From contig CM022673.1 of assembly GCA_012295275.1 (NCBI GenBank), positions 27,652,001-27,716,000 of the forward strand: 64,000 nucleotides of DNA, in the 5' to 3' direction. Source of the DNA: Chrysomallon squamiferum (Eukaryota; Animalia; Mollusca). The notes below the pieces were generated by a model, which was given only the letters and a program-made list of their open reading frames with translations, ran no database searches and was not told where the DNA came from. This document shows, piece by piece, positions 2,180 to 51,583 of the stretch (within the stretch, counting starts at the first letter, position 1; every line of letters starts with the position of its first letter). The position numbers and the translations under genes were made by a program.

Positions 2180-5100
2180 TTAGGCTGCTCGTGACTTGCA
2201 AACTATGGCAGTGTTTGCTCTGCTGCATTTCTGGTTCATCCACCCGTAACCTGCACTGGATGTAAGCAGCTTGACACACTGACCTCTACGTAGTTTACTC
2301 ACTCCGTAACCGGGTGTCCAGTTCATGTACATCATCGCTGTCCCAGATTCCGTTTCGAAAGCGTCAGTTTTATTGTTGTATTTGTAACCTAGAAGAAAAC
2401 AAATCGTATATTGAACATGTTAAAGCATCGTGGATATTCTACTCCGTTGAAAACATCTATGTTACACATGTTTTTGATACAGCTGTAGTGAAGTGTATGT
2501 GGAAAAAAATACGTTTTTGTCGAATATGATTTAAATCGAATCTTTAAGGTTGCGTTTCTGACCCAGAAAAATACAAGCCGTGTATTTTAATGCATGATGA
2601 ATGAAATTTTATTACAGTGAATCTGCTTCACTGAAACTTGATATAATATCAAAACAATTTATCACTTTTTTTTTTTTAATCAAACGTGATTTATGTCGAA
2701 TTTTTCGTTATTGAAACTGAACATTCGATCATGTAAATGGAATCATGTTTGCTCGAATATGGCTGACTCGAAGAAAATCGAACGTGAATTAAAAACCGTT
2801 TTTGTACAATTTTGTAAAACAATGATTAAATTGCACAATATATTCGTAATTTTTTGCTTCATCTAAACACGTTATATTATCCATTAAACTCTAAAAGTAC
2901 TTTTTCATTTTGTTCTTTTTAATAACCAGTACAGAATTAAATTTATTTGAATCCTTTTAATCTTGTACATAGAGAGAGACAAGGAGAGACAGAGACAGAG
3001 ACAGAGGTTTTATTAAGCAAACTTGCCTAAAAGTACATAGGGTTTCCACTGCACGTTGAAAGTTTTCACCAGATCTCCGATAAATTCGTTTTCATCTTTG
3101 TCATCAATAGTTACAATACTACTGATACCCCTGAAAATATATTTTTACACATTCATTTTCAATATATGCTTATTCAGAAGGTGCAAAGGTGTACATAGTT
3201 TGCTGTATTCGCGATGCGTTTGTGTCTATTTTTTCAATCGTGTGCAAATGTGTCAATTTCTGTAAGGTATTACACACTGTATGTAACATGGACAAAAAAG
3301 ATATCGAATAAGAATAACTAGTAATAATATAGTGATATAAAAATTAAAAAAAAAAAAAAAAAAATTGTAACAATTAGTAATGATTAACTGCACATTTTCT
3401 GCTTTTTGTAATGAAACATTAGAAATATTTTTGTAGGATGTTAAGTAATAAGCAACAAGTTGTTTCTTACTGGTTGCAGATTTTGTCAGCGGTTTTGTAG
3501 CTTCCAAACTTTCCAAGATAAAGATAACACGAGTCTCCGAATTTAGTCCACTCTGAAACAGTATTGGTGGTCATAAGAAACTACATCTTTTTTAACATAA
3601 AACATGAAAACACTAAACCTTATTTTCAGTTCGTTAGAGACCGAACAAATTAAAACAAGTATTTTCAAAAATATTTTATTTTTTGAAATTCTTAATCAGA
3701 TAAAAAAATGAAGTTTTAAAGCTTAATGAATATATTAAAGAAGAAATAATTGAAATATTTTAACTGACTAATTGCATTACAGCTCTCTCCTCTTTATACA
3801 TAAATTAATTACTTTCTCACCTGTTGAACAAGGATTTGAAGGACTAAGTGTCTCTGAAATTGAAATATGGGATTTTTGTATCATAATTTTCTTTTTATAA
3901 ATGCTGTGATTAATATACATTAAAATTTTATTAGCTTGTCATTTTTAATATATATGTATGTGTATATGTATGTATATGTAGGTAGGTATGTATACATATC
4001 TGTGTGTTTGAATAAAAATAAAGGAAATAAAACTAAATTTTATTATTCCCAGTGCAAACTGATACATATTTTAGTAAAACCGATCTTAACCATGCTTATG
4101 AATTTTAATACTGAGTTAAACAATTTTATTTAAAAAAAAATAAAAAAAAATAAAAAAATGAAGATTAAATAGAGGCCATGTGTTTCAGATGAGTGATACG
4201 TTTTGGTGATAAATATAAAATAGTAATATTGTTTTTACTTACCAAGTATACACACTACGCCATTTCTTCTTCTGTATTCTGCTTTTCCAGGCACGTACAG
4301 TTTTCTATATATCAGTTCTAAATAATAATAGTAATAATAACATTAACAATAATAACAACAACAAACAACGGTTCGATTAATAGTTACAGCTAAGAAAAAC
4401 GTAACTAAAACCAAAAAACCCAACAACCTTAACATTATTATAATAATAATATAATTGTTATCATCACTGTATTATTATTTTATTGTTGTTATTGTTATTG
4501 TTAATTAACAACAACAACGACAACAACAAAACAGAAATAATATTTAAAACATAATTAGAAGAGAATATAACGTGAAAGGCCGTTCAGAACACTGTAAAAG
4601 ACAATCACCTGTGTAGACTCCTTCCAGGGGTTGTTTGGTTGCAACGTAATAGTTGACATTGGACTTGCCGTAGATGCTGATGTGCTGAACTATTTCTTTC
4701 TGTGGAGACAATAACAAAACGAAATGATTCAGTAAAATAAGGTGAAGGTGAAGGTGAAGGTGAAAGTGAAAATAAAATTAAAAAAAAAAAAAAACAAAAC
4801 CCAAATATTTCTAAACTGTATGCTCATCCAATAACACTAACACTGGAAATATTTTTATTTAAATTTTTTTAATATAAATTTAAAGATATTATAAGGTATT
4901 ACGAATAAAATTATATATCTATCTATATATTTATATCTATATTTCTGTATCTATTTATATATCTATATCCCTATAATCTATATCTATATCCTATAATCTA
5001 TATCTATATCCCTATAATCTCTCTCTATATCTCTATTCTATCTAAATCTATATCTATTTTACAATAATTATAATATAACTGGACCTAAATACATAGGTAA

Positions 5101-6874
5101 CTTTTAAACTTTTTAATCTTCAGTATGCAAGCTTATAGAACAAACATCAACCATTTAAAAAATATCCGGAAAACTGAAACAGAGAGAGAGACTAACCCAC
5201 TGTTCCAAGTTGTCCATTGGAGCCACTCTGCCATTTCTAGTGAGACAGGCCAAGGAGGACTGGTGGTAGTCAGCTCTTTCACTGATCACAACGTAGCAGC
5301 TGCCTGCACTTCCCAGTCTGTGTCCGAGTTTGTCTGTACCACAGGTCTCTGAGAAACACAGTAACTATGTTATTGTTACTTTACATGTTATAAATATTGT
5401 GTCTGTTTTAGAGCTTGTGTATACACGAGTTCCTGTAACAAGTTCTGTGTAGAAGTGTAATGATTCAATTCATGGAAAGTGTGCGTATGTATGTACATTT
5501 TTGTGCGTGCGTGCGTGAGATTGTGCATGGGTGTATGCGTTTTTGCTTGCGTATTCGAGTCTGCGAATGAGTTCGCATTGCACACGTTCATGTATATCAA
5601 TACCAAGTCGCCTCTGAAATGCATGTGCATGTATCTTGAGCGTGTATGTTTACAAGTATGCATGTGGGGATGTATGTGTATGTTTATTATTTATGTAAAG
5701 TTATGTAAGATGTAATATCACTTACCGATGGTAACTGAAGCTGCTTTCATGGGCAGCTGACAAAGATAACGCCTGAGTGCGTTTCCATTCGACATCATCC
5801 AGTGAAACAGCGACCTTATGTTCATATCTGTAATAGAAATACCCTTGACTATATAACCACTACTTTTAGTATTACTGTTATTACCAATACCAGTACCAGT
5901 ACAAATACCACCATCACCATTACTACTACACTATTATTACTATTATTATTCACAAATGATTATGCACACAAAGCCATTAGCTATTTTGCACATTTTTTTA
6001 TAATCATATGTTATCACATATTACTACATATTTTTATTCATTTTAATTCAAATGTATATCATACCTTCTTTTAAAAAGGCATGGATTAAAAAAGATAATA
6101 ACAGCATTGTAATTATTTCATTTTAATGAAAGCTCTTTTGCTCTTCATGTCTGCTCAACCATCTTACGTTCTTGATTTCTGGTATTCGTAAATTAAGTTA
6201 AATTCTCGTCTTACTCACATCCGTAAACGTTTACTGGGTTCTTCACAAAACCAGGCTGGAAGTAGGAGAAAGCTCCTACACTGGTACCATCGACATTGAC
6301 CAAGTTTTTCGGGTCAAGAATTTTGTTTAAACCAAACCACACACTGGATCCTGAGTTTCGTATATACCTGATAACCTTTTGCTTAAAAAAAAAAAAAATA
6401 AATAAAAAATAAAAAAAAAATAAAAAATAAAAATAATGTATAAATAAATAAAATAGATCATACGGACAAGAGGTTGCTGTAGTCGTTACAGTAATTATTA
6501 TTATTATTATTATTATTATGATAATGATGAAAGTTAAAATAATAATTGAAAGTTTTAAACAAGAACATTTTTAATTTCACGAGGTTTCAATACCAAATAA
6601 TCGTCTAACACACTGACATCAACACCGTCGTGTACTGACTTGCTCAACACAAGACGCTGTCACAGTTTAACACTGTACTGACTCGAGAACTCGAGTTCAA
6701 GACTAACTACCTGTACGTCTGCTGTGTCAATGCTTGCCAGTTCCCCTCCAAGACTCAGACAGGAGCGCTGTGCGTCCACGTAACGTCTCAGCTGTGTTGA
6801 AAGAAAGTAACATTTACCACTGATCTCAGCGCCTTTGTTTTCTGGGCCGCACGAAGGCAGAGATGTGGGAGGTT
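2180..6874 (-). other. Three C-type lectin-like domains of gene A (exons 26-35)
   Basis: CTL signatures: GKCYFLS..DAQRSCLSLGGELASI..VWFGL; GSCYVVI..C..RNGRVA; WTKFGDSCYLY..C..IVTIDDKDENEFI..LG..NW..CV..WMNQKC..IVCK. Confidence 0.8.
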
Positions 6875-51000: not shown

Positions 51001-51583
51001 AAAGAAAGAAAGATAGATAGTTAGAAAGATAGATAGATAGATAGATATGGCTTATTTTCTAATTCATATTTAAATTTATTCACATAAAAATTATTGTAAG
51101 CAATAAAATAAAATAATATATATGTGCGTGCATGTTCTTTTGCTTTATTCTATTGCTTACAATAATTTTTTTTATGTGGATAAATTTAAATATTAAACAG
51201 AAAATAAACCATGTTCCTTTTTCCTTTAATTTGCACCTAATATGAAAAACTAGGAAGGAAACACGATCCCATTTATTTTATTTTATTTTATTTTATTTTA
51301 TTTCATTTAAACCTTCCACGTCTCAAAGTTTCAACAATCTCACCACACTAACACTCTGCTCTTTCTTTCAGACGTCAAATACGAAAAAACATCAGCGACT
51401 TTCAAAAATCTTGATGGCTCTGCTCTTGCGTACTCTAACTGGGGCAGTAACCAAGGTGACAAAAACACGAGGAGAGGGGAGTGCGTCTTGTTTTCGTCAC
51501 AAGACGCGAACTACACGTGGTACAACAAATCGTGCTCGTCTTTGTACTCAGCAATGGTTTGCAAGCAGCCTGCTGCCGTGTAA
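27033..51583 (+). CDS. Gene B: secreted CEMIP/TMEM2-like protein (G8, GG-like, beta-helix) fused to WSC and three C-type lectin-like domains; 1,612 aa, intact
   Basis: 35 exons: 27033-27396, 27971-28137, 28724-28865, 29269-29451, 30279-30464, 30761-30865, 31307-31491, 32342-32414, 32946-33064, 33469-33641, 33856-33925, 34269-34415, 34806-34954, 35571-35642, 36134-36280, 36886-37081, 37674-37892, 38605-38698, 39732-39837, 40420-40584, 41521-41683, 42881-42940, 43225-43309, 43502-43616, 44650-44825, 45553-45716, 46165-46327, 46720-46821, 47520-47671, 48320-48410, 49005-49079, 49667-49699, 50220-50301, 50661-50764, 51372-51583. The sum is 4,839 nt (divisible by 3) and all introns are GT-AG. Signal peptide [23 protein letters not shown]; the same CEMIP, WSC and CTL motifs as gene A; no transmembrane segment seen. 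Confidence 0.92.
38743..39200 (-). mobile_element. Decayed RTE-like non-LTR retrotransposon 3' end with a trinucleotide tail, in gene B intron 18
   Basis: Minus strand reads [30 protein letters not shown], resembling the RTE C-terminal W.P.GKR.RGRP..W.D..LA.DR..W motif. It is followed directly by a (GAT/GAG)n tail (38743-38900). The upstream boundary is approximate. Confidence 0.45.
41751..42172. repeat. 21-bp minisatellite, about 20 copies, in gene B intron 21
   Basis: Units GTTAACATGACTCGTACGTAT and GTTAACATGACTCATTCTTGT interspersed. These produce the repetitive ORFs 41538-42134(-) and 41682-42479(+). Confidence 0.95.
43502..44825 (+). other. WSC domain exons (24-25) of gene B
   Basis: [87 protein letters not shown]. 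Confidence 0.85.
45985..46191 (+). repeat. 52-bp tandem repeat (4 copies) spanning the acceptor and start of gene B exon 27
   Basis: CAAGCTATTTGTTCTGTTTTTCAG|GCTGATATTATTAAATATTATTAGACCT starts at 45985, 46037, 46089 and 46141. Confidence 0.95.
50807..51046. repeat. (GATA)n compound microsatellite
   Basis: Directly visible GATA/GAAA run. Confidence 0.9.

What the first reader, a model, noticed from the sequence alone, without database searches (positions are those of the whole stretch)
2180..51583. Secreted CEMIP/TMEM2-type proteins with a WSC plus triple C-type-lectin tail: a candidate glycan-targeting enzyme or recognition system
Seen: both genes encode signal peptide, G8, GG-like region, CEMIP-type beta-helix, Pro/Cys linker, WSC and three CTL-like domains as one phase-compatible exon chain, with no TM segment. 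Established: vertebrate CEMIP (KIAA1199) and TMEM2/CEMIP2 act in hyaluronan depolymerisation and carry no WSC or CTL domains; WSC domains bind polysaccharides such as beta-glucans and xylans; hyaluronan is scarce or undocumented in most invertebrates. Inference: a polysaccharide-lyase/hydrolase-like core fitted with four carbohydrate-binding modules, like a microbial CAZyme with CBMs. It may act on a non-hyaluronan glycan (algal or microbial wall, mucus, shell or extracellular matrix). I do not know of a characterised protein with this architecture, but cannot rule out that it is already in databases.
Basis: partly seen in the sequence, partly recalled or inferred. Interest (0 to 1): 0.85.

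Follow-up and report, generated by a model that had tools for sequence, protein, structure and literature searches.

The report
Secreted snail CEMIP cousins, lectin tails
Two back-to-back snail genes encode distant relatives of the vertebrate hyaluronan-cutting proteins CEMIP and TMEM2 with a WSC-plus-three-lectin-fold tail; they are predicted to be secreted and likely cut some sugar chain other than hyaluronan, and similar proteins are already listed, untested, for other snails.

Summary
Two divergent 35-exon paralogues (A: minus, 23437-2180, 1607 aa; B: plus, 27033-51583, 1612 aa; 53% identical) encode signal peptide, G8, one GG/ILEI-like domain, CEMIP beta-helix, domain X, WSC and three C-type-lectin folds, with no membrane segment. 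One spliced RNA contig joins core, WSC and lectin exons of A exactly as modelled; B has no RNA cover where tested. The architecture is already in NCBI for abalones, Gigantopelta, Babylonia and Saccoglossus under automatic names; my paper searches found no description. Three refinements: (1) the genes belong to a gastropod paralogue clade, not the CEMIP/TMEM2 orthologue clade (AU p = 5e-9); (2) TMEM2's R265/D273/D286, needed for hyaluronan breakdown, are all replaced, and the lectin folds lack EPN/QPD/WND, so 'four sugar-binding modules' is unproven; (3) an 11-residue His/Glu/Asp set is intact in both genes and in 114 of 135 homologues, and is lost in Saccoglossus: a candidate active or metal site for the whole family. 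Best reading: a secreted, tail-tethered depolymerase of a non-hyaluronan glycan (activity untested). The scan earlier noted only a bacterial CEMIP-like lipoprotein, not this architecture.

The parts
2180..23437 (-). Gene A, 35 coding exons, 1607 aa; likely orthologue of Gigantopelta aegis P0006 (73% identical, full length)
   Evidence: RNA contigs
22550..23437 (-). A exons 1-2: predicted signal peptide and G8 domain
   Evidence: Pfam G8 E 1.5e-20 and 1.3e-6; hydropathy
19787..21684 (-). A exons 3-5: GG/ILEI-like (lectin-like 1) insertion; TMEM2 R265/D273/D286 positions hold H/N/L
12960..19308 (-). A exons 6-17: CEMIP-type beta-helix; exons 9-12 (17699-16435) carry the conserved H470 H472 R493 H498 H516 E521 D522 E525 D547 W568 H630
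   Evidence: Pfam PF24606; conservation
13621..13815 (-). A exon 16, one base short in the window near 13704; the RNA contig has the full 196 letters
10122..12355 (-). A exons 18-21: CEMIP domain X
   Evidence: PF24605 E 4.4e-5 on one exon, 3.6e-18 on P0006
8958..9490 (-). A exons 22-23: Pro/Cys linker
   Evidence: spacing in RNA contig; X3 record 14 joins 8958-9047 to 10120-10193
7495..8423 (-). A exons 24-25: WSC domain
   Evidence: PF01822 E 3.3e-12
5726..6874 (-). A exons 26-28: C-type-lectin fold 1, no EPN/QPD or WND, inner cysteine pair absent
4243..5348 (-). A exons 29-31: C-type-lectin fold 2, shortened (about 105 aa; long-loop region reduced)
2180..3853 (-). A exons 32-35: C-type-lectin fold 3 and stop; intron 34 is GC-AG
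   Evidence: PF00059 E 2.6e-4 on last exon
23438..27032 (.). 3.6-kb spacer between the two start codons (head-to-head); a shared promoter is possible, not tested
   Evidence: sequence
27033..51583 (+). Gene B, 35 coding exons, 1612 aa, open frame; closest to Gigantopelta P0001 (70%, an N-terminal 647-aa model)
28724..30464 (+). B exons 3-5: GG/ILEI-like insertion; R265/D273/D286 positions hold N/N/Y
30761..41683 (+). B exons 6-21: beta-helix and domain X, all 11 conserved residues intact
42881..44825 (+). B exons 22-25: linker and WSC domain
   Evidence: PF01822 E 3.8e-11; no RNA cover
45553..51583 (+). B exons 26-35: three C-type-lectin folds without canonical motifs
   Evidence: PF00059 E 7.3e-6 on last exon

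Best explanation
The two genes encode CEMIP/TMEM2-family proteins of a gastropod paralogue branch that are predicted to be secreted and likely act as depolymerases of an acidic glycan other than hyaluronan, probably held on their target by the WSC-plus-lectin tail. Shown: gene structure, core-to-tail splicing for A, domain order, tree position, residue conservation. Inferred: (1) secretion, from the N-terminal hydrophobic peptide and the lack of a membrane segment; (2) that the near-invariant His/Glu/Asp set in the middle rungs of the beta-helix forms the active site and binds a divalent metal under the two lid loops; (3) that the altered GG domain no longer reads hyaluronan, so the substrate is another uronic-acid or N-acetylhexosamine polymer, most simply the animal's own mucus or matrix glycosaminoglycan; (4) that the tail takes the place of TMEM2's membrane anchor and second GG domain, tethering the enzyme by non-canonical, calcium-independent binding to glycan or protein.
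For: Core matches human TMEM2 (8C6I) at E 2.7e-133 over residues 47-1079 of the 73%-identical P0006. Eleven polar or aromatic residues are each at least 93% conserved in 135 homologues, 114 of 135 keep all 11, and both genes keep all 11. Purified TMEM2 ectodomain was reported to cut hyaluronan by itself (PMC10474455, abstract). Beta-helix enzymes have their sites on the concave face, mostly mid-helix, where TMEM2 has lid loops 627-662 and 733-756 (PMC10206443 passages); the conserved Asp (D547; TMEM2 D634 by my count) lies in the first. The 8C6I model holds one Ni2+ and only residues 112-1381 are resolved, so the His tag is probably not its ligand. R265C, D273N and D286N abolish TMEM2 activity; A has H/N/L and B N/N/Y there, while amphioxus, bird, axolotl and Lingula P0049 keep R/D/D and hagfish keeps the same motif. 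Homologues carry CBM6/35, PA14, NPCBM (6 of 29 picked). The tail folds as WSC plus three lectin-like domains (mean pLDDT 81; best Foldseek hits mannose-receptor-family arrays and single C-type lectins, TM 0.8).
Against: No activity has been shown for any invertebrate member in the papers searched. TMEM2's own catalysis is disputed: PMC10206443 found none and could not assign an active site; PMC10276149 argues human TMEM2 is not catalytic (listing). I made no model of the core, so clustering of the 11 residues is inferred from the alternating strand pattern only, and the place of the Ni2+ is not described in the paper's main text. The residues could be structural. Loss of R/D/D could mean loss of activity, not change of substrate. 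Substrate and tissue are unknown; contigs cannot rank expression. B has no transcript evidence.
Confidence: 0.45

Rival explanations
1. Non-catalytic recognition or matrix protein: the beta-helix is a scaffold or binding surface (as is unsettled for fibrocystin's TMEM2-like regions) and the whole molecule binds glycans or proteins in mucus, haemolymph or shell matrix.
For: The three residues needed for TMEM2 activity are replaced; one study saw no activity of pure TMEM2; fibrocystin has two such regions of unknown activity (bioRxiv 10.64898/2026.10.19.758525 passages); the tail resembles mannose-receptor-family lectin arrays; Saccoglossus P0022 has this tail with a core that lost 5 of the 11 residues, so a non-catalytic version probably exists.
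Against: All 18 gastropod-clade and Haliotis/Littorina TSP1-type rows listed keep all 11 residues, as do most distant homologues; His/Glu/Asp retention over such distances is more typical of chemistry than of a scaffold. The snail lectin folds lack canonical sugar motifs.
Confidence: 0.22
2. Enzyme against foreign glycans: a gut or immune depolymerase aimed by WSC and lectin folds at algal walls, microbial capsules or symbiont surfaces.
For: Bacterial-type homologues with CBM6/35, PA14, NPCBM, cell-wall-binding and secretion tails; molluscan C-type lectins without canonical motifs can still bind sugars and microbes (PMC12842671 passages); paralogues share contig lengths in Haliotis, Gigantopelta and Babylonia, as for clustered duplicates.
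Against: Kept in lineages of very different diet (abalones, a whelk, a vent snail; diets recalled), which argues against an algal-wall role; A and P0006 are 73% identical, with no sign of the fast change typical of immune receptors (selection not tested); no tissue data.
Confidence: 0.22
3. An ordinary invertebrate hyaluronidase equivalent to CEMIP/TMEM2, as the database names say.
For: Automatic names 'cell surface hyaluronidase-like'; intact shared core; hyaluronan has been reported in mussels (PMC12383584, abstract start and one passage).
Against: Outside the orthologue clade, which already has lophotrochozoan members (Lingula P0049, Owenia P0047; 100/99 support); forcing the snail clade with those two is rejected (p-AU 4.6e-9); R265/D273/D286 replaced, one by the inactivating D-to-N change; His248 position holds Pro; no membrane anchor or second GG domain.
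Confidence: 0.1

Closest known systems
Vertebrate TMEM2/CEMIP2 (PDB 8C6I) and CEMIP/KIAA1199
   Same: G8, lectin-like domain 1 insertion, beta-helix and domain X in the same order (E 2.7e-133); the 11 conserved core residues.
   Different: No membrane segment, no second GG domain; WSC plus three lectin folds instead; R265/D273/D286 replaced; separate clade.
Gastropod 'cell surface hyaluronidase-like' database proteins (Gigantopelta P0006; Haliotis P0002-4, P0016, P0160-2; Babylonia P0015)
   Same: Same full architecture; 35-73% identical to gene A; one clade with 99/99 support.
   Different: Nothing of principle; these are automatic annotations with no functional study found.
Saccoglossus kowalevskii XP_077861562.1 (P0022)
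   Same: Core plus WSC plus three lectin folds; gastropod-only profiles of folds 1 and 3 score best on its first and third fold.
   Different: Two TSP1 repeats before WSC; keeps QPD...WSD in fold 1; lost H470, H472, H498, E521; fold 2 profile does not pick its second fold (15.6 vs 18.8 bits); tree position unresolved.
Bivalve, brachiopod and gastropod CEMIP-like proteins with a TSP1 tail or none (e.g. P0008, P0023, P0028, P0031)
   Same: Secreted-type core with the conserved set and degenerate GG motif.
   Different: Own clade (100/99); no WSC or lectin tail.
Mannose-receptor family lectin arrays; Kremen1 WSC
   Same: Tandem C-type-lectin folds (Foldseek E 6e-19); WSC match to Kremen1 E 1e-7.
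   Different: Those are membrane receptors with other flanking domains; whole-tail TM-scores are only about 0.25, so domain packing differs.

Membership tests
CEMIP/TMEM2 family (broad) | G8 domain followed by CEMIP beta-helix and domain X | tested here: met
   Pfam on exons and on the 73%-identical P0006; 8C6I match
CEMIP/TMEM2 family (broad) | Conserved core residues (HxH, TIHG, GH..EDxxE, DR, FW, AHS) | tested here: met
   11 of 11 in both genes
CEMIP/TMEM2 orthologues (hyaluronidases) | Grouping with chordate CEMIP/TMEM2 in a core tree | tested here: not met
   AU test against grouping with the lophotrochozoan orthologues p 4.6e-9
CEMIP/TMEM2 orthologues (hyaluronidases) | R265, D273, D286 in lectin-like domain 1 | tested here: not met
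   H/N/L in A, N/N/Y in B
CEMIP/TMEM2 orthologues (hyaluronidases) | Second GG/ILEI domain at the C-terminus; N-terminal membrane segment (TMEM2 only) | tested here: not met
   WSC follows domain X; hydropathy
CEMIP/TMEM2 orthologues (hyaluronidases) | Hyaluronan depolymerisation | not testable with these tools
   needs assay
WSC domain | Pfam PF01822 above cut-off, eight cysteines | tested here: met
   46.9 and 43.5 bits vs 27.8; eight invariant Cys in alignment A2
C-type-lectin-like domain (fold) | Two helices plus beta sheets, outer disulfide, three repeats | tested here: met
   Model of the P0006 tail, three repeats of strand-helix-helix-strands, Foldseek; fold 2 is shortened
Calcium-dependent C-type lectin (CRD) | EPN/QPD-like and WND-like motifs at calcium site 2 | tested here: not met
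   none in the last 400 residues of A or B; alignment
Polysaccharide lyase or hydrolase with CBMs (CAZyme-like) | Demonstrated cleavage and module binding | not testable with these tools
   only the modular parallel was seen

The most novel reading that the evidence does not exclude
The CEMIP/TMEM2 fold is an unrecognised class of metal-dependent glycan depolymerases whose site is a His/His/His/Glu/Asp cluster under the lid loops of the beta-helix (TMEM2 H550, H552, H585, E608, D609, D634 by my count), shared from bacteria to humans. The snail proteins are a naturally soluble branch retargeted to a non-hyaluronan glycan by an ancient WSC-3xCTL tail that goes back to the protostome-deuterostome ancestor, and the Saccoglossus copy is a natural dead-enzyme control.
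Probability: 0.25. Interest if true: 0.8.

Novelty: new variant of a known kind. Interest (0 to 1): 0.48.

Why it matters
How CEMIP and TMEM2 cut hyaluronan, and where their active site lies, is openly disputed. These genes show a soluble, conserved invertebrate branch that keeps the core set of His/Glu/Asp residues but drops the hyaluronan-reading residues, and a relative (Saccoglossus) that does the reverse with its tail, keeping a canonical lectin motif while losing core residues. That separates core chemistry from substrate targeting and names residues to mutate in human TMEM2. It also warns that the database label 'cell surface hyaluronidase' is likely wrong for these molluscan proteins. 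The locus itself is not unique: the architecture is shared across gastropods.

Tried and rejected
No genome is held for this window, so copy number and the animal's true CEMIP/TMEM2 orthologue could not be checked. RNA on gene B: X1, X3 and X4 gave only short chance matches on 42400-45380; no evidence either way. Only 2001-15000 of gene A was laid, so exons 1-13 have no direct RNA placement; the 3044-nt contig would by length reach exon 7. Separate-gene idea for the tail: rejected for A by the contig; contigs come from short reads, so one full-length molecule is not shown, and the exon 29/30 junction is not on a listed record. Common ancestry of the gastropod and Saccoglossus architecture: not rejected and not shown (p-AU 0.297). 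The tail profile count (17 of 170 core-bearing proteins with any tail domain, 12 with the full tail, A and B and near-duplicate cluster members included) is partly circular, since 7 of them built the profiles; Pfam is the independent check. The 29 proteins were picked for length, so 6 of 29 is no frequency. For one search, 36 of 171 rows were dropped for short coverage or as extra cluster members. The TMEM2 303 position could not be aligned reliably. No structure model of the core was made, so the geometry of the His set stays open. Paper searches for a description of the architecture: (0 papers); none of the listed papers describes it; and 67 were loose searches. Supplements were not read; proteome or transcriptome tables could list these proteins under their automatic names. 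The loose end of X3/X4 at 2333 is not in the window.
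Full report
Observation. The window is AT-rich eukaryotic DNA with many microsatellites; no genome is held for it. 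Comparing six-frame segments with each other shows two colinear paralogues pointing away from each other. With the database protein P0006 as guide I built gene A (minus, 23437-2180, 35 exons, 1607 aa) and gene B (plus, 27033-51583, 35 exons, 1612 aa). All 34 intron phases agree, most exon lengths are equal, and the proteins are 53% identical. B is open throughout. A lacks one base in exon 16 in the window; the RNA contig has it. The nearest named proteins are from the gastropod Gigantopelta aegis (A 73% to P0006, B 70% to the partial P0001), so the window likely comes from a related snail (inference).

One gene or two? Record 3 of RNA run X1 (3044 nt) lies on exons 16, 17, 21, 25 and 26 of A at record positions 1740-1935, 1523-1739, 982-1147, 557-729 and 393-556. 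The model predicts 1740-1935, 1524-1739, 984-1146, 557-732 and 393-556. Variant rows of the same depth (14.2) run from 5272 (exon 29) to 14143 (exon 15). A second contig (depth 21.2) lies on the last exon, has a variant row in exon 31, and its length fits exons 30-35. Run X3 independently joins 8958-9047 to 10120-10193. So the tail exons are spliced to the core in A. These are short-read contigs from one study. B was not covered.

Is it in databases? Yes. The same Pfam set (G8, CEMIP beta-helix, domain X, WSC, Lectin_C) appears in Haliotis rufescens, H. cracherodii, H. asinina, H. rubra, Gigantopelta aegis, Babylonia areolata and the hemichordate Saccoglossus kowalevskii, with partial tails in Lottia, Elysia and Nucella models. 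Bivalve and brachiopod relatives have a TSP1 tail or none. All names are automatic. Paper searches listed no description of the architecture; the library lacks most subscription journals and I read no supplements.

Relationship to CEMIP/TMEM2. A tree of 26 core sequences (965 columns, IQ-TREE LG+C20; 49-row FastTree) gives three supported animal clades: the gastropod WSC-lectin clade with A and B (99/99); chordate CEMIP/TMEM2-like proteins with Lingula P0049 and Owenia P0047 (100/99); and a bivalve/brachiopod/gastropod TSP1-or-no-tail clade (100/99). Forcing the gastropod clade together with P0049 and P0047 is rejected (p-AU 4.6e-9; this grouping was named after the tree was seen). Human TMEM2 itself was not in the tree; bird, axolotl, hagfish and amphioxus proteins stood in. 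Saccoglossus is unplaced; joining it to the gastropod clade is not rejected (p-AU 0.297). The A/B duplication predates the split from Gigantopelta.

Hyaluronan-reading residues. [quoted passage not shown] Counting on the 8C6I alignment (chain index plus 82, checked by Asn248, Phe303 and Cys554) and the multiple alignment, A has H, N, L and B has N, N, Y there. The orthologue clade keeps the motif. The His248 position (PMC12423501 passages) holds Pro. Hyaluronan is thus an unlikely substrate by the vertebrate route.

The core. Across 135 of 171 homologues with enough coverage, H470, H472, R493, H498, H516, E521, D522, E525, D547, W568 and H630 (gene A numbers) are each at least 93% conserved; 114 of 135 keep all 11, 16 differ at one, and both genes keep all. 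H470/H472, H498, E521/D522 and W568 fall at outward positions of successive strand repeats (inferred from the alternating pattern, not from a model). The structure paper places most beta-helix active sites mid-helix on the concave face, covered in TMEM2 by two loops, and could not assign a site; its table lists one Ni2+ whose ligands the main text does not give. PMC10474455 (abstract and one results section) reports intrinsic activity of purified TMEM2 and explains the negative results by reagents. A metal-binding His/acid site is my best inference, untested. Six of 29 long homologues that I picked carry known sugar-binding modules, which supports an enzyme-plus-module design for the family at large. 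An earlier scan note (e1-1225659) describes a bacterial relative; I confirmed only that such relatives keep the core.

The tail. A model of the P0006 tail (12-sequence alignment, mean pLDDT 81, pTM 0.74) shows WSC and three lectin-like repeats; Foldseek's best hits are mannose receptor, PLA2R and DEC205 arrays and single C-type lectins at TM about 0.8. But A and B have no EPN/QPD-like or WND-like motif; fold 1 lacks the inner cysteine pair and fold 2 is shortened. Saccoglossus keeps QPD...WSD. Molluscan lectins without the motifs can still bind sugars (PMC12842671 passages), so binding is open, not excluded. That fungal WSC domains bind glucans and animal WSC domains also bind proteins is recalled, not checked.

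Verdict. Real genes, a real fusion, shared across gastropods and catalogued under a probably misleading name. Most likely a secreted depolymerase of a non-hyaluronan acidic glycan, tethered by its tail (0.45); rivals are a non-catalytic binding protein (0.22), an enzyme for food or microbial glycans (0.22) and a plain hyaluronidase (0.10). It is a new variant of a known kind. Its value lies less in the locus than in the handle it gives on the disputed CEMIP/TMEM2 active site. Interest 0.48.

Noticed in passing
window 54100-56890, + strand: Exons of a 2OG-Fe(II) oxygenase-like gene (pieces at 54136-54390, about 55140-55290, 56741-56890); PF13640 E 4.5e-4, below cut-off.
   Followed up: partly
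window 58650-64000, - strand: 3' exons of a probable single-pass membrane protein: Thr-rich stalk (59766-60173), hydrophobic segment in 58700-58966; no useful Pfam hit.
   Followed up: partly
window 2167-2333: In runs X3 and X4 a contig matches only this part of A's last exon (6 differences) and goes on with other letters; its depth in X3 is 82.8 against 2-5 for other exon contigs. Another transcript, paralogue or allele with an insertion; the loose letters are not in the window.
   Followed up: partly
window 45984-46192: A 52-base unit repeated 4 times copies the splice acceptor and first bases of gene B exon 27, giving several look-alike acceptors.
   Followed up: no
window 41749-42173: 21-base unit, 20 copies, in gene B intron 21 between domain X and the linker.
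   Followed up: no
P0022 (Saccoglossus), P0069: Natural losses of the conserved core set (5 and 6 of 11 residues changed): candidate dead enzymes.
   Followed up: partly
P0060: Database protein with a GH38 alpha-mannosidase ahead of the G8/CEMIP core; real fusion or merged gene model, not checked.
   Followed up: no
P0002/P0016, P0004/P0162, P0005/P0160, P0001/P0006, P0015/P0019: Paralogue pairs share the same longest-contig length in each species (0.95 Mb in H. rubra), hinting that clustering of these genes is old in gastropods.
   Followed up: no
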